From a virus, in the IMG/VR virus record IMGVR_UViG_3300032285_004186: DNA of 64,000 bases; one strand, written 5' to 3'. The notes under the pieces were generated by a model. The model was not told where the DNA came from. It saw only the letters and a list, made by a program, of their open reading frames with translations, and made no database searches. Made by a program: the position numbers and the translations under genes. How positions within the stretch are numbered: the stretch's first letter is position 1; each line of letters starts with the position of its first letter. Positions 18,528-56,340 of this stretch are shown here, piece by piece.

Positions 18528-19370
18528 TTACTTTAAATCTCTACCAGCATTAATAACGGACACTGCTATAGAAGAATGAATACTCTCATAGTGATTAACA
18601 ATGACCAGATAATCTTTGATGCGATTATCTAAATCTTTGTCTAATTCAACTGCAACTTTACGAACCATGTCTTCAACAAAAACTGGATTTTCATACATCA
18701 ATTCTGTTTGATAAGCTTCATCAACTCTCTTCAAAGCATTGACAATTGGTGCTGACGAACTTTTCTCCACTGCTGTAATCAGTTCTTCGAGCCAGTACAC
18801 TTCTCCGTCTGTGCCTACATTAGCTAATTCAACGGTAACATCTGCATAAGACTGCTGATTATGTGCTCCATAATCTGAGATTTCTTTAGAACATGGACAA
18901 AGAGAAGCATAAAGAACGTTACCATGAAGATAAAATTTCTTTTCTCCATTTACTAAACGTCCTTCTAAAGAACCTTGATAATCCATGTGAGAGACTACTT
19001 TTGAAACCGGAGCTTCCTTCTTGAGAAAGTAATCAAATTTAATCTTAATATAAGCATTTTGACTCTTAAGACGATTCTTGCACTCATCCAAAAGAATGTT
19101 CATCACTTCATCAATACGATGGGTTTTATTAGCAAGAACTTCCTCTACTAGAATACGATAACGACTCATATTAGTACCCTTAACCTCTGGGGTGAGATCT
19201 GTATACATACTAATAATGGCTTTGGTTGGATTAATGGTTCCGTCTTTGCGAACAATTTCCATAGGAACAACAATATTACGAGATCCTACCTTGGGAATAT
19301 ACTTCTTAGGAAAGCCGTCTAATGTGTTTTGGATGTCGGGAATATCAGCGTTAGTTTTAATGCGTGGCAT
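18528..19370 (-). CDS. folE2: GTP cyclohydrolase IB
   Basis: 'PDIQN', 'KGTNMSR', 'SLCPCSKEISDYGAHNQQS', 'ENPVFVEDMVR' and 'ESIH'. The start MPRIK at 19370 avoids overlap with gp32. Confidence 0.93.
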   Translation of the reverse strand: MPRIKTNADIPDIQNTLDGFPKKYIPKVGSRNIVVPMEIVRKDGTINPTKAIISMYTDLTPEVKGTNMSRYRILVEEVLANKTHRIDEVMNILLDECKNRLKSQNAYIKIKFDYFLKKEAPVSKVVSHMDYQGSLEGRLVNGEKKFYLHGNVLYASLCPCSKEISDYGAHNQQSYADVTVELANVGTDGEVYWLEELITAVEKSSSAPIVNALKRVDEAYQTELMYENPVFVEDMVRKVAVELDKDLDNRIKDYLVIVNHYESIHSSIAVSVINAGRDLK

Positions 19371-19425
19371 ATTTTTATTTGGTTTTTTGTTATTATATTT
19401 TAAAGTAAACTTTTGTCTCCAAGAA

Positions 19426-20301
19426 TTAAAGATCCTTGAGAATGTCTTTGATGCGGCTGTCAACTGGAATTTCATCTTCATCTTCTGAAACGACTGTTGC
19501 TTTTTGTGGAGTTGTTTTGGCTACAGATGCTGGTACAAATGAATCTTCTTCATCTTCTTCCACTGCTACAGATTTTGTAGGTGCACTAGCTGATTCAGTT
19601 TGTCCGAGGAAGTGAATATTAAGAGCCTTGGCTACCTCTTCATAAGATTTATGTTCAAAAATAGTATCTAATGATTTGACCGAATCATAAACTGTGTCTA
19701 AATCTGGGTCTCCTTCTAATGAGGAGGGTGAGGTAAATTTAGAAGCCACATATGTAGGATATCCTCCTTCATTGGTTTCTACCTTGATACGAAGATTGCA
19801 TCCTCTTTCAGAAAGGTCAAAAATTTTCATGCCCAAATCATCTGCGTCATCTCCTGAAATAGCTGATGTGATAATCTTATCCAATTGTTTTCCAAAACGA
19901 AGAATCTTAACCTGGCCTTGATTCTCTGGATTGGTGGGGTCTTTAATGACGTAAACATTGGCAAGCCAATTTTCATTACGTTTGATGGGTTTAATACGTT
20001 CAATTTCTGCTTTGTCTTGATTGCGGTAAATCTTAGAACGATACTCATCAATAGGACAACGTTCTCCATATGTGGCTGGACACAAGCAAGAAACCAGTTC
20101 ATTGGTTACTACACTATTCCAAAGGTGATGATAATAGTGAAACAAGGTTCTTTCTGGATTTGCTAGATTCGGAATAAGACGAACAAGGTATGTCTTACCA
20201 ATTTCTAGCTTCATAAAATCTTTAAAGCTACCTCCTTCACCGGAGGTCTTTTTTGTGAGGGCTTCTTTAATGGATTCGAATAGGTTGGCGGTGTATTTCA
20301 T
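19426..20301 (-). CDS. Single-stranded DNA-binding protein (gp32-like)
   Basis: 'LVRLIP', CP...CPI, 'NVYVIKDPTNPENQGQVKILRFGKQL', 'YPTYVASKF' and an acidic tail. Confidence 0.9.
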   Translation of the reverse strand: MKYTANLFESIKEALTKKTSGEGGSFKDFMKLEIGKTYLVRLIPNLANPERTLFHYYHHLWNSVVTNELVSCLCPATYGERCPIDEYRSKIYRNQDKAEIERIKPIKRNENWLANVYVIKDPTNPENQGQVKILRFGKQLDKIITSAISGDDADDLGMKIFDLSERGCNLRIKVETNEGGYPTYVASKFTSPSSLEGDPDLDTVYDSVKSLDTIFEHKSYEEVAKALNIHFLGQTESASAPTKSVAVEEDEEDSFVPASVAKTTPQKATVVSEDEDEIPVDSRIKDILKDL

Positions 20302-24248: not shown

Positions 24249-24725
24249 TTATTTTGATAAATCAATATAAATTGCTGAATTTTCAGCATGTTCCCACACT
24301 TCAACTTTTTCCACCCAACACCTATAACCATACTTGTCTGAAAGATATTGCCTAGCTGCATTGTAACACCACTCTGCTGTTTTTTCAATTCCTACACCTG
24401 ACATGACTCGAAGGTCACACCCTCCATTATCATGCAATTGAATAAAAGATGGTAACAAAGGATCATCTTCTGCAATACATAACGTATGATCAAATTGTTT
24501 TTGCAAAATAGCCTTAAGATCTTTAAGACCACCGAAGTCTACTGCCCAATTTTTATCATCTAATTTAGAACAACCAAACCAAAATTTTGCTTTAAGTTCG
24601 TAGCCATGAACATATGAACACCTTTTAGAATTTGGTCCTGCATCTAATCTTTCGTTGTCTAAACCTGCCCGCCATTGTCGAAAGGCACAGCTGCCTAATT
24701 TAATAATCTTTGTCGATTCAAACAT
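24249..24725 (-). CDS. queD: 6-carboxytetrahydropterin synthase
   Basis: 'CAFRQW', 'CSYVHGY', 'VDFGGLK', 'FDH' and 'VEVWEHAENSA' T-fold motifs. Confidence 0.85.
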   Translation of the reverse strand: MFESTKIIKLGSCAFRQWRAGLDNERLDAGPNSKRCSYVHGYELKAKFWFGCSKLDDKNWAVDFGGLKDLKAILQKQFDHTLCIAEDDPLLPSFIQLHDNGGCDLRVMSGVGIEKTAEWCYNAARQYLSDKYGYRCWVEKVEVWEHAENSAIYIDLSK

Positions 24726-26390: not shown

Positions 26391-27065
26391 TTATTCGATG
26401 TTTTGTTTGTTGATAAAATTTAAAGCCTCAGAACATGCCGGAAACAATTCACAAAAACTTTTCTTAATGTTGTCCGCTATGTCCCTGTGTTCCAGTTGAG
26501 TATCCTTTTTACATCTTAATTGTAGATAATGTATCCAGGATCTTATGTTTCCTGTCATATATAAAGTTGTCTGCACACAAAGAGGAAGAACCTTGCGAGC
26601 ACTTTCTCGGGCTCCTCCTTTGGAGATAATATATTCATACAATTCTATTCCACCTGTGACATGGTCTACAATTTTTTTAATGTCTTCTGGCTCCAAAGGC
26701 AAAATCTCTTCACTGGACTGCCTATTTTTTTCTGCTTGTTTTCTTACATCAAAGGATTCTAATCCAGTCACCACACTATATCGTTGACTAAATTCTTGAA
26801 AAGAAAAAGATTTATGTCGCAAAATTTGTGCAGATATGTCTCTGCTGGTTTGAATTTCTACAGTCATAGAAGCTTGTTCGAAAATAGACCAATGTTCGTG
26901 TTCTATACAGTATTTTATTAATTTAGAAGATGTATCTAAATTTAATTGATTAGATGGATTAGACACCCTAGCACAATAAACTATAAATTCTTCTGCTGAT
27001 AAAAATCTGGTATTATCTTCAGATCTTATATAAGGTTGTGTAATGGCTACTACTTTTGTTTGCAT
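26391..27065 (-). CDS. thyX: FAD-dependent thymidylate synthase
   Basis: ARVS, HWSIFEQ, RHKSFSFQEFSQRY, ESARKVLP and TQLEHR. Confidence 0.95.
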   Translation of the reverse strand: MQTKVVAITQPYIRSEDNTRFLSAEEFIVYCARVSNPSNQLNLDTSSKLIKYCIEHEHWSIFEQASMTVEIQTSRDISAQILRHKSFSFQEFSQRYSVVTGLESFDVRKQAEKNRQSSEEILPLEPEDIKKIVDHVTGGIELYEYIISKGGARESARKVLPLCVQTTLYMTGNIRSWIHYLQLRCKKDTQLEHRDIADNIKKSFCELFPACSEALNFINKQNIE

Positions 27066-27865
27066 AAGTCTTTAAAAATTTTAATATTGTCTTTTATAAT
27101 TTCTATTTGATCATCTGTGACTGGTTCATCAAAAATATCTATCATCTTTTGAGGAATTTTATCTTGTAAATTTTTATCAAATTGATAGGATTTTTTATAA
27201 AAACCTGACAAGACTGGATGAGAAGTATCTATACTTTCTATAAAAGAAAGTTGATTGTCTCTGTACCAACTAAATTCTAAAGGAATTCCACAACCTAATA
27301 AATGATGAGGTTTATTCTGATTAATAATTCCTTTATCCAACAAATATCTAACCAAAGATATTCGCCCGTCACTAAAAGATTTTGCTTTAGATTGAATATC
27401 TTCTCTCCAATTTCTCAAATAAAAATCATAACCAAAGCTTATTGCTATTTTATCTGCTCTTTCATTCATGAAGTGGTAAGCCTTTTCAAAATCTTCATGA
27501 CATTTGCCTTGTAAAACACCAATTTTCTTACCAGTTAACACTGATAAATCAAAATCTTTGTTAAATTTTTCATAAGAAGCCAGATTTTCTTCACAATTTT
27601 GCCAAACATCTGGCACAATATACTCATCTGGTTGGATTCTTAAGAGCCATTTGTAGTATTTTTCAAAATTAAATGCCTCTCCCAGCTCAAATAAGCTGCA
27701 GTCCATGATAATTTTGCGATCATTGTGCTCAAAAAAATCCAAATAACTCTTTGATTCTTCTAATAAATGTACCAAACAGTAGTCATAATCTGTCACGGAC
27801 TGCACCAAATCCATAATTTCCATAGGGGCTTCGTGGGCTATTTGCATATTTTTATATAATAACAT
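27050..27865 (-). CDS. TGT/DpdA-like guanine transglycosylase-fold protein
   Basis: TIM-barrel motifs in TGT order: 'IIMDCSLFE', 'IVPDV', 'IGVLQG', 'HHLLG' and 'SIDTS'; Que genes are present in the window. Confidence 0.65.
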   Translation of the reverse strand: MLLYKNMQIAHEAPMEIMDLVQSVTDYDYCLVHLLEESKSYLDFFEHNDRKIIMDCSLFELGEAFNFEKYYKWLLRIQPDEYIVPDVWQNCEENLASYEKFNKDFDLSVLTGKKIGVLQGKCHEDFEKAYHFMNERADKIAISFGYDFYLRNWREDIQSKAKSFSDGRISLVRYLLDKGIINQNKPHHLLGCGIPLEFSWYRDNQLSFIESIDTSHPVLSGFYKKSYQFDKNLQDKIPQKMIDIFDEPVTDDQIEIIKDNIKIFKDLCKQK

Positions 27866-31969: not shown

Positions 31970-32722
31970 CTATACTCGAAGAGCTTTATCCCATACCATT
32001 AAATGCAATCGAGGTGACATTTTAAAACCATATTCCTTGCAAATCTCTGCTACTTCTTCTGCATTTTGTACATGTTCCTGTCTTGAACCTGCACACACCA
32101 TGATCCATATCCTATTTCGATGAATCATGAGAGAGGGATGATTGATGTATTCCACAAATAATTCTTGTATGTCTTCTTTTGTTTTGACCACAAATTTAAA
32201 ACAAGACCTGTTTTTTACATGAAACTTCAACGCTTCTGTATTATATCTTTTTTCTTTAGCATCACCGTTGCTTGAAAGTTTGGGTGAGGTTGTAAAAGTG
32301 GCGTGATATTTGTCTATCCAATCTTTTTCCGGCAGAATAGAACCATTGGTTTCAAAATCTATCCTCGGTAAAAACCCGTATCGATCCCAAAATGCTTGCA
32401 CAAAATTTAAAAGAGGTTTTTGCCTAAGCATCGGTTCACCTCCTGTAATTTTCCATATATCACCTCTGCGAAGTTTGTCTACTAGACTGTTTTCTTCATA
32501 AAATTTAAACATGTCCTCAAAACTGTATTTGTTTTTCTTAGACCAAGAGATATAAGAGTCACATCCCCAAGGTGAATCAGGAGAAGCCCAACCTTTACAT
32601 GTTAAATTGCATCCAAATAACCGCATGAACACACTTGGATGACCTATATACTCTCCTTCTCCTTCAATAGTATGAAATCCGGGACCATCATCACTGATTA
32701 ATAAATAATTTTCTTCTGACAT
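31970..32722 (-). CDS. queE: 7-carboxy-7-deazaguanine synthase (radical SAM)
   Basis: 'TIEGEG..IG.PSVFMRLFGCNLTC', ITGGEP, ETNG, SPKL, FKFVV and SPRLH. Confidence 0.92.
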   Translation of the reverse strand: MSEENYLLISDDGPGFHTIEGEGEYIGHPSVFMRLFGCNLTCKGWASPDSPWGCDSYISWSKKNKYSFEDMFKFYEENSLVDKLRRGDIWKITGGEPMLRQKPLLNFVQAFWDRYGFLPRIDFETNGSILPEKDWIDKYHATFTTSPKLSSNGDAKEKRYNTEALKFHVKNRSCFKFVVKTKEDIQELFVEYINHPSLMIHRNRIWIMVCAGSRQEHVQNAEEVAEICKEYGFKMSPRLHLMVWDKALRV

Positions 32723-34613: not shown

Positions 34614-35603
34614 TTAAGTCATCTGCTCTTTAATCCACCAGTATACATTATATATTCCTTTGTGTAAAGGGTAATTTGGCTTCCAATTTAACTTCTTAAA
34701 AATTAAATCATTGTCTGAATTTCTGCCACGAACTCCAAGAGGTCCACTAATATGTTTTTTAACTAAGGTTTTATTTTCCATAGAAGCTGCCACATCAACA
34801 AGTTGATTTATGGTAATCATCTCATCTGATCCAATATTTAATGGTTCGGTAAAATCTGATTCCATTAATCTTCTTACTCCTTCTATACATTCATCTATAT
34901 ATAAAAATGATCTGGTCTGTTCCCCATCCCCCCAGATTTCAATTTCTTCTCCGTCTTTTGCAGTCAATACTTTACGGCAAATAGCAGCCGGGGCTTTTTC
35001 TCTTCCACCTTGCCAGGTACCCATTGGACCGAAAATGTTATGAAATCTGGCTATGCGAACATTTAGTCCGTGATTTCGAGCATATGCCAAATAAAGACGC
35101 TCACTAAATAATTTTTCCCATCCGTATTCGCTATCAGGTGCAGCTGGATAAGCGGATTCTTCAGAACATTTAGGATTATTAGGATCTTCTTGATTATATG
35201 CCGGATACATACAAGCACTGCTAGAATAAAAAACTTTTTTGACATTGAATTGTCGGCACAATTCTGCTATATTCAGGTTAATTTGAGCAGAATTATGCAT
35301 AAGATTTGCATCATTATTTCCACTAAAAATAAATCCAGCACCACCCATGTCAGCAGCTAGTTGATATACTTCATCAAAAGAATTTTCCTTTTCTTCTAAA
35401 CTATGTTGTCCGGGGGCTAACATTAACAAAGAACTTGCTTTATAATCCCTCAAATCTGTTATAAAAAATTCATCTGCCTTTGTGGATGAAAATTCTGGAT
35501 ACTTAAGATCTGCTCCCCTCACCCAATATCCTTCTGTTTTCAGACGATTGATTAAATGATTACCTATAAATCCACCTGCACCTAAAACTAAAGCTTTTTT
35601 CAT
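34614..35603 (-). CDS. NAD-dependent nucleotide-sugar epimerase, GDP-mannose 3,5-epimerase-like
   Basis: GAGGFIG, LAADMGG, SSSACMYP, YGWEK, GGREKAPAAICRK and GVRGRNSDN. Confidence 0.88.
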   Translation of the reverse strand: MKKALVLGAGGFIGNHLINRLKTEGYWVRGADLKYPEFSSTKADEFFITDLRDYKASSLLMLAPGQHSLEEKENSFDEVYQLAADMGGAGFIFSGNNDANLMHNSAQINLNIAELCRQFNVKKVFYSSSACMYPAYNQEDPNNPKCSEESAYPAAPDSEYGWEKLFSERLYLAYARNHGLNVRIARFHNIFGPMGTWQGGREKAPAAICRKVLTAKDGEEIEIWGDGEQTRSFLYIDECIEGVRRLMESDFTEPLNIGSDEMITINQLVDVAASMENKTLVKKHISGPLGVRGRNSDNDLIFKKLNWKPNYPLHKGIYNVYWWIKEQMT

Positions 35604-46424: not shown

Positions 46425-46643
46425 ATGTCCACAAAATTTCAACAATTATTTTTACAACTTATGGAGGACAACTCTGCAGCACTGGGGGGTGTTTTTGGAC
46501 CCAATGATGCTTATGCCTCACCTGAAAATTTAGACACCAAGTTTTCTATGGCCATAACCGGAAAATCTAGTGTTAAAGGTCCGAAAAATAAAAAAAAGAA
46601 AAAATTTCCGTTGATAAGAAGAAATTTGAATAGATCTTTATAA
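46425..46643 (+). CDS. Hypothetical small protein
   Basis: 72 aa with basic C-terminus; TAATG-coupled to the next gene. Confidence 0.55.
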   Translation: MSTKFQQLFLQLMEDNSAALGGVFGPNDAYASPENLDTKFSMAITGKSSVKGPKNKKKKKFPLIRRNLNRSL

Positions 46644-47071
46644 TGGCCACGGAAGAAAAATATGGTCATTGGATTTTAAATGACGAAATACAAATAAATG
46701 AAACTACTTTTGGGTTTATTTATGAAATTACTAATATTATAGAAAATAAAATATATATTGGTAAAAAACAGTGTAATTCTAGAGTAAAAAGAAAACCCTT
46801 AAAAGGTAAAAAACGTAATAGAATAAGTTTTAAACAATCTGATTGGAAGACTTATACTAGCTCTTCAGAAAATGTTAATAATGATATAATTCGTCTGGGC
46901 AAAGAAAATTTTACATTTAAAATTATTAAAATTTGTTCTTGTAAATGGGAATTAGCTTACTATGAGGCTAAAATTCAATTTGAACGCAATGTTTTATTTG
47001 ACAAAAATTATTACAACGGTATTATTAATCTTAGAATAGGATCTCCTCCTAAAAATCTTACTTTAACATGA
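46643..47071 (+). CDS. Stand-alone GIY-YIG nuclease-like protein
   Basis: 'GFIYEITN...KIYIGKK', 'WKTYTSS' and 'YYN'. Confidence 0.8.
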   Translation: MATEEKYGHWILNDEIQINETTFGFIYEITNIIENKIYIGKKQCNSRVKRKPLKGKKRNRISFKQSDWKTYTSSSENVNNDIIRLGKENFTFKIIKICSCKWELAYYEAKIQFERNVLFDKNYYNGIINLRIGSPPKNLTLT

Positions 47072-52874: not shown

Positions 52875-53618
52875 ATGGATAGTGCAAACAACGACAAGAT
52901 TTGTGTAGTTTTATATAGTGGAGGCATGGATAGTACTGTAGTTTTGCATCATGCTTTAGCAAACTATAACAAGGTTTATGCCCTAGCTTTTGATTATGGA
53001 CAGAGGAACATAAGAGAATTGACCGGAGCTGAAAATTACATCACAAATTATATTTTAAAATCTTCTTATGCAGAGAAATTAAAGTATTCTCGTATGCCCT
53101 TACCGGTAAAATTTTTAAATTTTAATTCTGCATTAACAGATGAGAATATAGAAGTGCCTAAAATGAAAGAGGTTATTGGTGATCCACAAAATGTAGCGTA
53201 TGTTCCAAATAGAAATATGATTTTTTTGTCCCTAGCGGTGGGCATGGCGGAAAGTGTCGGCGCGCCTGATGTTTTATATGGAGCAGCCAAGGCTGACGAC
53301 ACTTCAGGTTTTTGGGATTGTACACCAGATTTTAGAAATTATCTTAACACTATTCTTTCTCTTAATCGTAGAAATCGTATAGAGATTAAAACTCCTTTAA
53401 TAGACAAAACAAAAAAAGAAATTATCGAATATGGTTTAGAATTGGGTGTAGAGTTTGGTTGGACAAGAACCTGTTATACAGAACATGAAAATTCTTGCGG
53501 AGAATGTCCAAGTTGTTCGGCTCGAATTGCCGGTTGGTTACATACAGGTAAGATAGACCCATTGAAATATTCTAGAGAAATTGATTGGCAAAAATATAAT
53601 TGTCAATCAATATACTAA
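52875..53618 (+). CDS. queC: 7-cyano-7-deazaguanine synthase
   Basis: SGGMDS, FDYGQR, YVPNRN, DC, TRTCY and CGECPSC. Confidence 0.95.
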   Translation: MDSANNDKICVVLYSGGMDSTVVLHHALANYNKVYALAFDYGQRNIRELTGAENYITNYILKSSYAEKLKYSRMPLPVKFLNFNSALTDENIEVPKMKEVIGDPQNVAYVPNRNMIFLSLAVGMAESVGAPDVLYGAAKADDTSGFWDCTPDFRNYLNTILSLNRRNRIEIKTPLIDKTKKEIIEYGLELGVEFGWTRTCYTEHENSCGECPSCSARIAGWLHTGKIDPLKYSREIDWQKYNCQSIY

Positions 53619-53621
53619 TAT

Positions 53622-54254
53622 ATGTGTGGCATAGCAGCAGCTCCAACGTTTGAAAAGGCTTTTAATTTATACAGATTAAATTTACATCGAGGCAGTTATT
53701 CTTCTGGCTTAATGTCTGTAGATACTAAGACAGGTGCTTATTTTATATATAAACAACAAAAAGCATTTGAAGAAATAGAATCTTTGCTTTGGAAGATAGA
53801 ACAAAGTAGAAATAATTTTGATTACTTTCTTTTTCATTCAAGAGCCCCCACCAACAGCACAGAAACACTATGGACTGCAGAAACTACTCATCCTTTTGCA
53901 TATGATAATTGTCATGTAGCCCACAATGGTATTATTACAAATTTTCAAGAACTTAATAAAGATTTGAATTTTAATGTAGACACACAAATAATACCATACA
54001 ATCTAATAAAGACATACAATATACAAGAAACATATTCCAACTTGCAAGGATTGCTTACTAGTTGGATAGTTTGGGGTAAAGATGTACATGTAATTAAAGC
54101 TGGTAGCTCTTTATGGATGGACAAAGATTCTTTTTCTTCTTCAAAATTTGAAGGTGCTCACTACATAGAGGAAGACGGTGTAATATTTAATTATATTAAT
54201 AATAAATTTGAAAAAAGTGGAACATTTCCTTATACAAGTACATATTTTATATGA
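53622..54254 (+). CDS. Class II glutamine amidotransferase (stand-alone)
   Basis: N-terminal MCGI, RG, HSRAPT, THPF, AHNGIITN and VDT. Confidence 0.88.
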   Translation: MCGIAAAPTFEKAFNLYRLNLHRGSYSSGLMSVDTKTGAYFIYKQQKAFEEIESLLWKIEQSRNNFDYFLFHSRAPTNSTETLWTAETTHPFAYDNCHVAHNGIITNFQELNKDLNFNVDTQIIPYNLIKTYNIQETYSNLQGLLTSWIVWGKDVHVIKAGSSLWMDKDSFSSSKFEGAHYIEEDGVIFNYINNKFEKSGTFPYTSTYFI

Positions 54255-54937
54255 AAAAAATAACAGCAGTAATTGCCACACAGGCAAAATCTATTCAAGA
54301 ATTTGAAAAACGACCCATTTTTAAATCTTTACAACGACATCATGATTCTAAAGATTTATTTTCAGCTGGTAAATTTGATTTTGTCTTAGTTAAAGACAAT
54401 AAAGAGGGGTTGCCTAAAGTGTATAATAAATTTTTGCAAGATTCTAAATATCAAAAAGACATTCTTTTATTTGTTCATGATGACGTTGAATTAGAAGATT
54501 TGTTTTTGATAGAAAAATTGCAAAATTCACCCTACGAGGTTACCGGTTTGGCTGGTACTAAAAAAGCAAATTTAAATAAACCACCCGGCTGGCATTTAAT
54601 GAGCACAAAAGAAGACTGGGTAGGTGAAGTAGCCCATGCTGATTCCTCTGGAGTTTGGACGACAGTTTTTGGTCCAACTAATTCCAGGGCTTTATTAATA
54701 GACGGACTTTTTATAGCAGTAGATGTTAAAGCTATAAATGAAAAAAATGTTTCATTTAATGAAAAATTTGAATTTCATCATTATGATTTATCTTTTTGTT
54801 TAGATTGTAACAAAGCCAAGGTAAAAATAGGAGTTTTGCCTATTAGAGTCATACATCACGGTTTGGGCGACAGTATGCTTTCAGAAGAATGGAAAGTTAG
54901 TGCTGAAATCTTTAAACAAACCTACGGTACAAATTAA
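54251..54937 (+). CDS. GT-A glycosyltransferase-like protein
   Basis: 'GLPKVYN', 'FVHDDV', 'GLAG', 'IDGLF', 'FHHYD' and 'HHGLG'. Confidence 0.8.
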   Translation: MKKITAVIATQAKSIQEFEKRPIFKSLQRHHDSKDLFSAGKFDFVLVKDNKEGLPKVYNKFLQDSKYQKDILLFVHDDVELEDLFLIEKLQNSPYEVTGLAGTKKANLNKPPGWHLMSTKEDWVGEVAHADSSGVWTTVFGPTNSRALLIDGLFIAVDVKAINEKNVSFNEKFEFHHYDLSFCLDCNKAKVKIGVLPIRVIHHGLGDSMLSEEWKVSAEIFKQTYGTN

Positions 54938-54959
54938 AAATTACATTTACAATAAACAC

Positions 54960-55553
54960 ATGAGTAGATCAAAAATATACAAAGATGAAGATTATGATGG
55001 ATCTTTGATTCACGGACGATTTGGGTATAAAATTTTTCGTAAGAATTATAATCCATTAGGGGTGATTCATATTACCAGGGGCAATATGGATGTTAAAGAC
55101 AATTTAATTGATTTAGAAGATAAATTAACAAATGATTTCATTTACTCCGAAGATGCTTTGAGTATTTGTTGGGAGATTCCTAACATGAATCCGACAGGAG
55201 CTGTATTCTTTCAAAGACTTTTTATGCAAGAAATTGCTAATCTTTTTAGAACAGATCAATTCGGAATTTACGATCTTTATGTTGACGGAGATGATTTAAT
55301 GTTGCGTAAAAAAGGCATGGGTGAAAATAACAGAGAAGAATTCGGTAAGGCCAGTGTCAGTATCACTAAGGTAACAGACAATATTGCACTGGGTCATATT
55401 GGTATCAACATCTCCGCAGGATCAAGAGCTCCTAGTTTTGCTTTTTCACTATATTTGACAGATGAAAAAGTAGATGAATTGGCCAGTGTAATTGAAGAAA
55501 TTTTCTATGATATTCTTCAAGATTGTTTTATAGCTACTACCAAGGTGATTTAA
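54960..55553 (+). CDS. DUF366-like protein (likely start MSRSK)
   Basis: 'YDGS', 'RG.MDV...IDLED', 'IYS.D', 'QRL', 'GDDL', 'K.SVSI' and 'HIGINI' match the DUF366 consensus as I recall it. Confidence 0.75.
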   Translation: MSRSKIYKDEDYDGSLIHGRFGYKIFRKNYNPLGVIHITRGNMDVKDNLIDLEDKLTNDFIYSEDALSICWEIPNMNPTGAVFFQRLFMQEIANLFRTDQFGIYDLYVDGDDLMLRKKGMGENNREEFGKASVSITKVTDNIALGHIGINISAGSRAPSFAFSLYLTDEKVDELASVIEEIFYDILQDCFIATTKVI

Positions 55554-55956: not shown

Positions 55957-56340
55957 ATGATAGATAGACCTGTAAATTTAGAAGATCGAATTGGAGGCAA
56001 AATAGAAATAGAACATTATCAGGGCAATGATTTTGAATTAGAAGATTGGGTATTAGATAAGGTATTAGATAATATTTTAATGGTTCAGTATGTGGACATT
56101 AATGAGGCCGGCACAGAAATTAAAAGAGGTAGTTTATGGATACCTATCGGAGCAGTTCAACATACTTGGAGGGTTGCTAAAGTTATTAAAGCCGGACCGG
56201 ATTGTAAAACTGTAAAAGAAGGAAATTATATTGTTTTTCCTAATGATAGAGGTTTAAAAGTGGCAAATCTTAACGGATTAAAAAATGTAGCTTTCTTGAA
56301 TGAAGACCGTATTTTTGGGGTCTGTAATCCAAAGATATAA
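55957..56340 (+). CDS. GroES-like co-chaperonin (gp31-like)
   Basis: 'RGSLWIP', 'AKVIKAGPDCKTVKEGNYIVFP' and 'FLNEDRIFG'. Confidence 0.8.
   Translation: MIDRPVNLEDRIGGKIEIEHYQGNDFELEDWVLDKVLDNILMVQYVDINEAGTEIKRGSLWIPIGAVQHTWRVAKVIKAGPDCKTVKEGNYIVFPNDRGLKVANLNGLKNVAFLNEDRIFGVCNPKI

What the first reader, a model, noticed from the sequence alone, without database searches (positions are those of the whole stretch)
52875..55553. queC + free GATase + glycosyltransferase + DUF366-like operon: candidate route to an undescribed hypermodified 7-deazaguanine
Seen: four tightly packed genes behind one promoter, namely QueC, an intact class II GATase (MCG, HSRAPT, HNG), a GT-A glycosyltransferase and a DUF366-like protein. 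No QueF, QueF-L or ArcS is present in the window. Known: FolE/QueD/QueE/QueC make preQ0, and fused Gat-QueC proteins make archaeosine (G+), including in phage DNA. Here the GATase is a separate gene placed after queC. DUF366 has no assigned function; I recall it having a class II aaRS/biotin-ligase-like fold and occurring near que genes, which needs checking. Inference: the base may be G+ that is then glycosylated, or DUF366 may act as a carboxyl-activating amide ligase on CDG, giving a new deazaguanine derivative.
Basis: partly seen in the sequence, partly recalled or inferred. Interest (0 to 1): 0.85.

Follow-up and report, generated by a model that had tools for sequence, protein, structure and literature searches.

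The report
Phage QueC, glutaminase, DUF366 and glycosyltransferase
Four neighbouring genes of an uncultured T4-like phage are real, but only three of them (QueC, a free glutamine amidotransferase and the unstudied protein DUF366) belong to the phage's machinery for replacing guanine in its DNA by a 7-deazaguanine, while the glycosyltransferase works independently of it, so a sugar-decorated new base is unlikely.

Summary
QueC (52875-53618), an intact class II Ntn glutamine amidotransferase (53622-54254), a GT-A glycosyltransferase (54251-54937) and a DUF366 protein (54960-55553) lie head to tail on the + strand.

- The phage also encodes FolE2, QueD, a divergent QueE and a DpdA3 transglycosylase. 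I found no QueF, ArcS core or TGT Pfam match.
- The GATase occurs only where QueC occurs (9 of 9 against 0 of 6 related genomes). It most likely feeds glutamine-derived ammonia to QueC, as in asparagine synthetase B, or makes archaeosine.
- DUF366 has a biotin-ligase fold. It follows queC directly in 35 of 46 bacterial and archaeal loci, inside ordinary preQ0 operons. In phages it keeps its invariant motifs only in lineages that keep QueC. It is probably an unrecognised QueC helper, not a phage-specific decorating enzyme.
- The glycosyltransferase keeps all 35 invariant residues in relatives that have lost every deazaguanine gene. It is therefore not dedicated to this base.

The likely product is dPreQ0, dADG or dG+. 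This scan has already noted the DUF366-QueC link on other DNA (114 notes, at least 84 genomes). It did not appear in the literature I searched.

The parts
52875..53618 (+). QueC, 7-cyano-7-deazaguanine (preQ0) synthase, a PP-loop ATPase
   Evidence: PF06508 E 1.8e-53. TIGR00364 164.6 bits, over the 150.3 cut-off. SGGMDS motif and CxxCxxC zinc motif.
53622..54254 (+). Free-standing class II (Ntn) glutamine amidotransferase, the QueC partner
   Evidence: Cys2, R74-A-P-T, H101-N-G and D120 are invariant in A2. It matches phrog_4736 and phrog_12378, and the GlmS N-terminal domain at E 7.7e-7. It is present only where QueC is present in 15 genomes.
54251..54937 (+). GT-A glycosyltransferase (Glyco_tranf_2_5), acceptor unknown, independent of the deazaguanine genes
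   Evidence: PF13712 33.9 bits. AF2 model pLDDT 92.9. Best fold match is majastridin 2qgi, E 1.7e-10. Invariant residues are kept in lineages without QueC or without the whole pathway.
54960..55553 (+). DUF366 protein with a BPL/LplA-like fold, a probable QueC-linked helper enzyme
   Evidence: PF04017 E 9.4e-17. AF2 model pLDDT 86. Z 21.4 to 2DDZ and Z 12-13 to BirA. QueC is its upstream neighbour in 35 of 46 cellular loci. Its motifs are lost in phage lineages without QueC.
31970..32722 (-). Divergent QueE (CDG synthase)
   Evidence: phrog_2076 'QueE-like radical SAM' E 1.5e-48. Five NCBIfam QueE models match at E 5e-15 to 1e-6, all below their cut-offs.
24249..24725 (-). QueD (CPH4 synthase) with a CxxxHGY motif
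   Evidence: PF01242 E 1.3e-14. The sequence keeps the catalytic Cys, unlike DpdL as described in PMC10516641.
18528..19481 (-). FolE2 (GTP cyclohydrolase IB)
   Evidence: PF02649 E 8.4e-65.
27050..27865 (-). DpdA3-type DNA guanine transglycosylase
   Evidence: tblastn: 42% identity over 96% of the query to the DpdA of Flavobacterium phage immuto 2-6A, and 36% to Campylobacter phage CP220. Both are DpdA3 phages in PMC10516641.

Best explanation
The window comes from an uncultured T4-like phage that replaces guanine in its DNA by a 7-deazaguanine.

FolE2, QueD and QueE make 7-carboxy-7-deazaguanine (CDG). QueC, a PP-loop ATPase, adenylates the carboxylate and converts it via the amide (ADG) to the nitrile preQ0.

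The free class II glutaminase most likely docks on QueC and supplies ammonia from glutamine. That would be the same division of labour as the two domains of asparagine synthetase B. It may also drive the further step to the amidine, archaeosine.

DUF366 is a one-domain protein with the catalytic fold of biotin and lipoate protein ligases. It is QueC's conserved neighbour in cellular preQ0 operons. It most likely helps the QueC step by binding or activating a carboxylate or nucleotide intermediate. It is not a phage-specific decorating enzyme.

DpdA3, encoded next to the DNA polymerase, puts the base into DNA.

The glycosyltransferase is a conserved gene of this phage group with another, unknown acceptor. 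The QueC-GATase cassette simply travels beside it.

Shown here: gene identities, folds, co-occurrence and motif decay. Inferred: the ammonia channelling, the reaction of DUF366 and the final base (dPreQ0, dADG or dG+).
For: - The pathway is complete.
- GATase and QueC go together. Both are present in 9 related genomes and both absent in 6. An unrelated Vibrio jumbo phage has QueF-YhhQ-QueC-Ntn hydrolase-FolE.
- The GATase has all class II catalytic residues and matches the GATase_6/7 families of the AsnB and GlmS type.
- DUF366 in cells: QueC lies directly upstream in 35 of 46 loci. The operons read QueD-QueC-DUF366-QueE-FolE, or contain that core.
- DUF366 in phages: 78 of 80 distinct ORFs from lineages with QueC keep all four family motifs. 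All 17 ORFs from the two lineages without QueC keep none.
- Among complete genomes, DUF366 is intact in 6 of 6 with QueC. In the 3 without QueC it is degenerate in 2 and absent in 1.
- Fold: Z 21.4 to 2DDZ and Z 12-13 to BirA over about 160 residues.
- GT independence.
Against: - No biochemistry exists for DUF366 or for a two-protein QueC-GATase.
- The GATase is not detectably closer to the Gat domain of phage 9g Gat-QueC than to other class II domains (hhalign probability 63%). I found no physical evidence of a complex.
- GAT and GT overlap by 4 nt even in relatives whose GT is only 33% identical. QueC-GAT-GT also moved as a block into the replication module of marine relatives. In another lineage DpdA3 abuts the GT. 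These points leave room for a functional tie of the GT to the pathway.
- The two lineages without QueC count as at most two independent losses.
- The contig is only about 60% complete.
Confidence: 0.6

Rival explanations
1. One reading: the GT glycosylates the deazaguanine (G+, ADG or preQ0-derived) in DNA and so gives an undescribed sugar-bearing base.
For: - QueC, GAT and GT are adjacent in 9 of 9 genomes that have QueC, in at least three genomic settings.
- The GAT/GT 4-nt overlap is kept at 33% GT identity.
- DpdA3-GT adjacency occurs in a further lineage.
Against: - The GT is present in 15 of 15 related genomes. It keeps 35 of 35 invariant residues in lineages lacking QueC and the GATase.
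- Two complete genomes also lack QueD, QueE and DpdA3.
- The fold match is to a generic UDP-binding GT-A protein (majastridin) and to protein O-GalNAc transferases, not to any DNA glycosyltransferase.
- No paper on a glycosylated deazaguanine in DNA turned up.
Confidence: 0.12
2. QueC plus the free GATase is a split archaeosine synthase, a two-gene version of Gat-QueC. The phage DNA would then carry dG+.
For: - Fused Gat-QueC gives dG+ in phage 9g (PMC6884629).
- This clade has no QueF and no ArcS core.
- The GATase is catalytically intact.
Against: - The same GATase co-occurs with a QueF-like gene in marine relatives and in Vibrio phage 2.275.O. That fits a role upstream of preQ0 better.
- It is not specifically related to the 9g Gat domain.
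- The gene order is reversed relative to the fusion.
Confidence: 0.3
3. DUF366 is an ATP-dependent amide ligase that couples CDG to an amine and so creates a new deazaguanine derivative.
For: - It has the BPL/LplA adenylate-forming fold.
- It has invariant Lys, His, Asn and acidic residues.
- Its catalytic motifs depend on QueC being present.
Against: - In bacteria it lies within QueD-QueC-DUF366-QueE-FolE operons of genomes that have Tgt and QueA, which need preQ1.
- The phage lineage that keeps QueD, QueE and DpdA3 but lacks QueC lets DUF366 decay. CDG alone is therefore not enough to keep it.
Confidence: 0.1
4. The four genes are merely neighbours in a variable spot of the genome, with no functional relation among them.
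For: - The region between the primase block and the o139 block is variable among relatives. It carries glycan genes, an epimerase, QueC/GAT or nothing.
- DUF366 always heads the same core block.
Against: - GAT and QueC co-occur perfectly.
- DUF366 is adjacent to QueC across cellular phyla.
- DUF366 motifs decay where QueC is lost.
Confidence: 0.05

Closest known systems
Gat-QueC of Enterobacteria phage 9g and Crenarchaeota (PMC6884629)
   Same: A class II glutamine amidotransferase works with a QueC module in a phage that also has FolE, QueD, QueE and a DpdA.
   Different: - Here there are two separate genes in the order QueC then GATase.
- The GATase is not specifically related to the 9g Gat domain (hhalign probability 63%).
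- The transglycosylase is DpdA3, not DpdA1.
- The product is unknown.
DpdA3 phages: Campylobacter phage CP220 (dADG), Cellulophaga phage phiST (dDG), Flavobacterium phage immuto 2-6A (fdPreQ1) (PMC10516641)
   Same: The transglycosylase belongs to the same subfamily (42% and 36% identity). The que genes are scattered among replication genes of a large myovirus.
   Different: The immuto cluster shows no free GATase, GT or DUF366. Conversely, this phage shows no QueF, and no DpdN-like gene turned up.
Asparagine synthetase B (class II GATase domain plus PP-loop synthetase domain; established enzymology)
   Same: The chemistry is the same: a carboxylate is adenylated by a PP-loop ATPase and amidated with ammonia released from glutamine by an Ntn glutaminase. 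Cellular QueC proteins even give weak Asn_synthase Pfam matches.
   Different: Here there are two polypeptides instead of one. The substrate is CDG. QueC goes on to dehydrate the amide to a nitrile. Complex formation has not been shown.
PH0223 of Pyrococcus horikoshii (PDB 2DDZ), Pfam DUF366 / PF04017
   Same: Same family and fold (Z 21.4, rmsd 2.3 Å over 174 residues). The same invariant motifs are present.
   Different: This is a phage copy. No function is known for any member. Here it is separated from QueC by two genes.
Biotin protein ligase BirA, and LplA/LipB
   Same: The whole protein superposes on the catalytic module (Z 12-13, about 160 residues).
   Different: Sequence identity is only about 10%. 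The GRGRxGR biotin/ATP loop is not visible in the sequence. There is no acceptor-protein domain. Different residues are conserved.
Vibrio phage 2.275.O._10N.286.54.E11 que cluster (MG592671)
   Same: QueC is followed directly by a free 204-aa Ntn hydrolase that is 28% identical to this GATase.
   Different: It is a jumbo phage with QueF and a YhhQ-type transporter. No DUF366 or GT homologue was found in cultured phage records.

Membership tests
QueC (PF06508 / TIGR00364) | Score above the curated cut-offs | tested here: met
   Pfam 181.6 bits against 22. TIGR00364 164.6 bits against 150.3.
QueC (PF06508 / TIGR00364) | PP-loop SGGxDS and the four-Cys zinc site | tested here: met
   SGGMDS at residues 15-20. 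C200, C208, C211 and C214. They align with cellular and phage QueC proteins.
QueC (PF06508 / TIGR00364) | Converts CDG to preQ0 | not testable with these tools
   Needs an enzyme assay or complementation of E. coli ΔqueC.
Class II (Ntn) glutamine amidotransferase | N-terminal nucleophile Cys right after Met, the Asn-Gly oxyanion pair, and conserved Arg and Asp | tested here: met
   M1-C2, R74, H101-N102-G103 and D120 are invariant in 13 sequences.
Class II (Ntn) glutamine amidotransferase | Pfam gathering score for a GATase class II family | tested here: inconclusive
   The window protein scores 21.7 bits on GATase_6, under the cut-off of 27. The relative in L013 scores 36.7 bits, which passes.
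Gat-QueC (fused archaeosine synthase) | GATase domain fused N-terminally to QueC in one polypeptide | tested here: not met
   Separate ORFs, QueC first, 3 nt apart. This holds in all relatives surveyed.
Gat-QueC (fused archaeosine synthase) | Makes G+ from preQ0 | not testable with these tools
   Needs LC-MS of bases or DNA.
GT-A glycosyltransferase (Glyco_tranf_2_5, PF13712) | Pfam score over the cut-off, GT-A fold and a DxD-type motif | tested here: met
   33.9 bits against 27. Fold match to 2qgi at E 1.7e-10, TM 0.68. H76-D77-D78 is invariant.
DNA base glycosyltransferase acting on deazaguanine (hypothetical) | Presence and conservation depend on the deazaguanine genes | tested here: not met
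   It is present and fully conserved in genomes that lack QueC, GAT, QueD, QueE and DpdA3.
DUF366 (PF04017) | Pfam score over the cut-off and the fold of 2DDZ | tested here: met
   61.5 bits against 29.9. Z 21.4, rmsd 2.3 Å over 174 residues.
DUF366 (PF04017) | Family-invariant residues (Y..G, DxED, Q, GDD, K..SVS, H..N, C-terminal K) | tested here: met
   All are present in the window protein when aligned with cellular members.
DUF366 (PF04017) | Genomic linkage to queC | tested here: met
   QueC is directly upstream in 35 of 46 cellular loci. In this window it lies 1.3 kb downstream of queC. In marine relatives it is in the same genome but distant.
Biotin/lipoate protein ligase (BPL/LplA) | Sequence membership, with the biotin/ATP-binding GRGRxGR loop and a Pfam BPL_LplA_LipB match | tested here: not met
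   No Pfam match other than DUF366 at E up to 0.01. No such loop is visible in the sequence. Only the fold is shared.
DpdA3 deazaguanine DNA-modification system | A DpdA3 homologue plus the CDG pathway genes | tested here: met
DpdA3 deazaguanine DNA-modification system | Modified base present in virion DNA | not testable with these tools
   The phage is uncultured and known only from a metagenome contig.

The most novel reading that the evidence does not exclude
The phage DNA carries an undescribed 7-deazaguanine derivative made by the translationally coupled GATase-GT pair, with or without DUF366. One example would be an amide- or amidine-linked glycosyl deazaguanine. The GT's survival in relatives without the pathway would then reflect a second acceptor.
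Probability: 0.12. Interest if true: 0.85.

Novelty: new variant of a known kind. Interest (0 to 1): 0.58.

Why it matters
Phages use 7-deazaguanine bases in their DNA to escape restriction. The enzyme list for these pathways is still treated as FolE, QueD, QueE and QueC plus tailoring enzymes.

This locus adds two untested parts that travel with QueC.
- A free glutaminase would make preQ0 or archaeosine synthesis depend on glutamine.
- DUF366 is a ligase-fold protein that sits in preQ0 operons of many anaerobic bacteria, also occurs in archaea, and is found in at least 573 viral contigs.

If DUF366 is a true pathway enzyme, the textbook route to queuosine and archaeosine is incomplete for a large share of microbes.

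The result also gives a clear negative. The glycosyltransferase is not a marker of a glycosylated deazaguanine.

Tried and rejected
- blastn of the region against cultured phages found no match.
- tblastn of the GT found no match. tblastn of DUF366 found only Microcystis phage MaAM05, in a stretch that looks bacterial and has no que genes.
- The Pfam TGT and Radical_SAM models missed DpdA3 and QueE. These two genes were found through PHROGs, NCBIfam and tblastn instead.
- Alignment A5 was too diverse for a genome scan, so I used A6.
- DUF366 as a replacement for QueF: in the five genomes I checked in full, all have Tgt and QueA, and QueF is missing in four, three of them labelled chromosome or complete genome. 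However, QueF is present in 18 of 50 DUF366-bearing genomes and in marine phages that also have intact DUF366. There is no clean anticorrelation, so I rejected this as the general explanation and kept it as a lead.
- A QueC-DUF366 fusion, mentioned in earlier notes, did not appear in a search of longer proteins. That search is weak.
- The idea that DUF366 goes with one QueC variant: cellular DUF366-linked QueC shares an FN.EE..FPDN motif, but the phage QueC proteins here have a different motif. It does not carry over.
- The downstream genes (o139, a GroES-like gene and others) are core genes present in all relatives, so I did not count them as pathway members.
Full report
**What is there.** The window is bases 32026-96025 of a 128,659-bp IMG/VR contig. 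The contig is a T4-like phage of about 31% G+C, estimated to be 60% complete. The window carries a T4-type portal, gp15, gp32, UvsX, a gp41-like helicase and a primase.

At 52875-55553 four co-directional genes are packed tightly:
- QueC, 52875-53618. PF06508 E 1.8e-53. TIGR00364 scores 164.6 bits, over the 150.3 cut-off. It has the SGGMDS loop and the C200/C208/C211/C214 zinc site.
- A 210-aa class II Ntn amidotransferase, 53622-54254. It starts MCG, and the HSRAPT, HNG and D120 positions are invariant.
- A 228-aa GT-A glycosyltransferase, 54251-54937. PF13712 scores 33.9 bits, and the HDD motif is present.
- A 197-aa DUF366 protein, 54960-55553. PF04017 E 9.4e-17.

The claim of a single promoter is not shown. 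Promoter-like matches are at background level, no terminator-like site exists, and the gene run continues downstream into core genes.

**The wider system.** The window also encodes:
- FolE2 at 18528-19481.
- QueD at 24249-24725, which keeps the catalytic Cys and so is not DpdL.
- A divergent QueE at 31970-32722. It matches phrog_2076 at E 1.5e-48 and five NCBIfam QueE models below their cut-offs.
- A DpdA3 transglycosylase at 27050-27865. It is 42% identical to the DpdA of Flavobacterium phage immuto 2-6A and 36% identical to that of Campylobacter phage CP220. These are the DpdA3 phages of Cui et al. 2023, PMC10516641.

QueF (PF14489) and the ArcS core (DUF5591) were not found in the contig or in two complete relatives. 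The TGT Pfam model found nothing in the contig. This is therefore a DpdA3-type 7-deazaguanine DNA-modification phage with a complete preQ0 pathway.

**The GATase goes with QueC.** I surveyed 15 related phage genomes, 9 of them at least 93% complete.
- QueC and the GATase are both present in 9 genomes and both absent in 6.
- The unrelated Vibrio jumbo phage 2.275.O has QueF-YhhQ-QueC-Ntn hydrolase-FolE. Its hydrolase is the best cultured-phage match to this GATase.
- The GATase is not specifically close to the Gat domain of phage 9g Gat-QueC (hhalign probability 63%). It matches GlmS- and AsnB-type GATase models about as well.

QueC is a PP-loop ATPase that amidates an adenylated carboxylate with ammonia. 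The closest mechanistic parallel is therefore asparagine synthetase B split into two proteins (inference). The same GATase co-occurs with a QueF-like gene in marine relatives and in the Vibrio phage. For that reason I favour ammonia supply to QueC over a dedicated archaeosine step. dG+ remains a live alternative for this clade, which lacks QueF.

**DUF366 is a QueC partner, not a phage decoration enzyme.**
- *Fold.* The AF2 model (pLDDT 86) superposes on PH0223/2DDZ at Z 21.4. It superposes on BirA and other biotin protein ligases at Z 12-13 over about 160 residues.
- *Cellular context.* A scan of one genome per prokaryote species found 180 loci, mostly from anaerobic bacteria of many phyla. 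The gene directly upstream is QueC in 35 of the 46 loci I scanned. Examples are QueD-QueC-DUF366-QueE-FolE in Desulforadius and Desulfosporosinus, FolE2-PGM-QueC-DUF366-QueE in a deltaproteobacterium, and QueC-DUF366-QueE in a Coatesbacterium. All five such genomes that I checked in full also have Tgt and QueA. DUF366 therefore acts within the ordinary route to queuosine.
- *Phage distribution.* At least 573 viral contigs carry a relative. There DUF366 heads a conserved core block of DUF366, o139, a GroES-like gene, further small genes, a helicase, gp15 and the portal.
- *Position relative to QueC.* In marine relatives QueC-GAT-GT lies about 47 kb away, between UvsX and gp41. Adjacency to QueC in this window is thus specific to the lineage.
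- *Motif decay.* The functional tie still shows. Of 80 distinct DUF366 ORFs from lineages with QueC, 78 keep all four family motifs (xxDxED, GDD, KxSVS, HxGxN). All 17 ORFs from the two lineages without QueC keep none. One of those two lineages still has QueD, QueE and DpdA3. The dependence is therefore on QueC, not on CDG synthesis in general.
- *Literature.* No paper in the searched library contains DUF366 as a whole word, or PF04017.
- *Earlier notes.* This scan has noted the same link on other DNA: 114 notes in at least 84 genomes. I reached the link independently.

**The glycosyltransferase is independent of the pathway.**
- The GT model (pLDDT 92.9) is a plain GT-A fold. It is closest to the UDP-binding protein majastridin, and next to protein O-GalNAc transferases.
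- Relatives occur on 353 viral contigs and in 15 of 15 surveyed genomes.
- Two complete genomes lack QueC, GAT, QueD, QueE and DpdA3 but still have the GT.
- All 35 family-invariant residues are kept in every freshwater lineage sampled, with or without the pathway.
- Some association remains. QueC-GAT-GT stay adjacent in 9 of 9 genomes with QueC, across different settings. The GAT/GT 4-nt overlap persists at 33% GT identity. In one lineage DpdA3 abuts the GT. I read this as a cassette parked next to a core gene, and I leave about 12% for a real role in modifying the base.

**Verdict.** The locus is a new variant of a known kind. It is a DpdA3 deazaguanine system whose QueC step has two extra, uncharacterised partners: a free GATase and DUF366. 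A glycosyltransferase of separate function sits between them. The expected DNA base is one of the known ones (dPreQ0, dADG or dG+). The main open question is what DUF366 does for QueC. That question now reaches well beyond phages.

Noticed in passing
L180-L258 (cellular DUF366 loci) and their genomes G019-G068: Only 18 of 50 DUF366-bearing genomes have QueF above the Pfam cut-off. Four of the five genomes I checked in full lack it, although all five have Tgt and QueA; three of the four are labelled chromosome or complete genome. Either another preQ0-to-preQ1 route exists there, or preQ1 is salvaged.
   Followed up: partly
L261:4817-5584 (-), QueC of marine relative G012: This QueC has lost three of the four zinc-ligand cysteines (…LADATTPSSSMRV… where others have CGxCxxC), yet it is still followed by GAT-GT. 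It may be a functionally shifted QueC.
   Followed up: no
L260:3675-5540, L261:3135-4820, L262:2720-4207: A 495-621-aa ORF on the opposite strand is inserted between QueC and the GATase in several marine relatives. In others a 318-aa same-strand ORF sits there (L259:3380-4336). None of these was identified. One possibility is a mobile element.
   Followed up: no
L008:4326-5339 and L010:671-1654; window 34614-35603 (-): In some close relatives an NAD-dependent sugar epimerase/dehydratase lies between the GATase and the GT. It is 78-87% identical to the window's gene at 34614-35603 in the glycan island.
   Followed up: partly
L013:5113-5977 and L014:5468-5977: In these relatives the GATase reading frame lacks the N-terminal Cys region, and a 62-aa ORF lies just upstream. 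This may be a frameshift or a decaying gene.
   Followed up: no
window 24249-24725 (-): QueD carries CSYVHGY instead of the canonical CxxxHGH. The second zinc-binding His is replaced by Tyr.
   Followed up: no
window 55957-56340 (+): A 127-aa GroES-like co-chaperonin (phrog_3188 E 1.7e-4, with a weak Cpn10 match) lies in the core block after DUF366. It may be a gp31 analogue.
   Followed up: no
window 46643-47071 (+): A SegE-type GIY-YIG homing endonuclease (PF19835 E 2.2e-28).
   Followed up: no
L001 (MW495066.1, 'Microcystis phage MaAM05', 108417-125007): The only cultured 'phage' record with a DUF366 match has secF, glyS, mtgA, fabI and fliM around it. The stretch looks like bacterial DNA.
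   Followed up: no
L101:5207-6622 (-), 9g Gat-QueC, compared with the cellular QueC proteins in A7: The QueC domain of phage 9g Gat-QueC shares the ..EEA..(F/Y)PDN.. motif of the cellular DUF366-linked QueC variant. It does not share the ..SG.WD(C/G).. motif of the T4-like phage QueC proteins.
   Followed up: no
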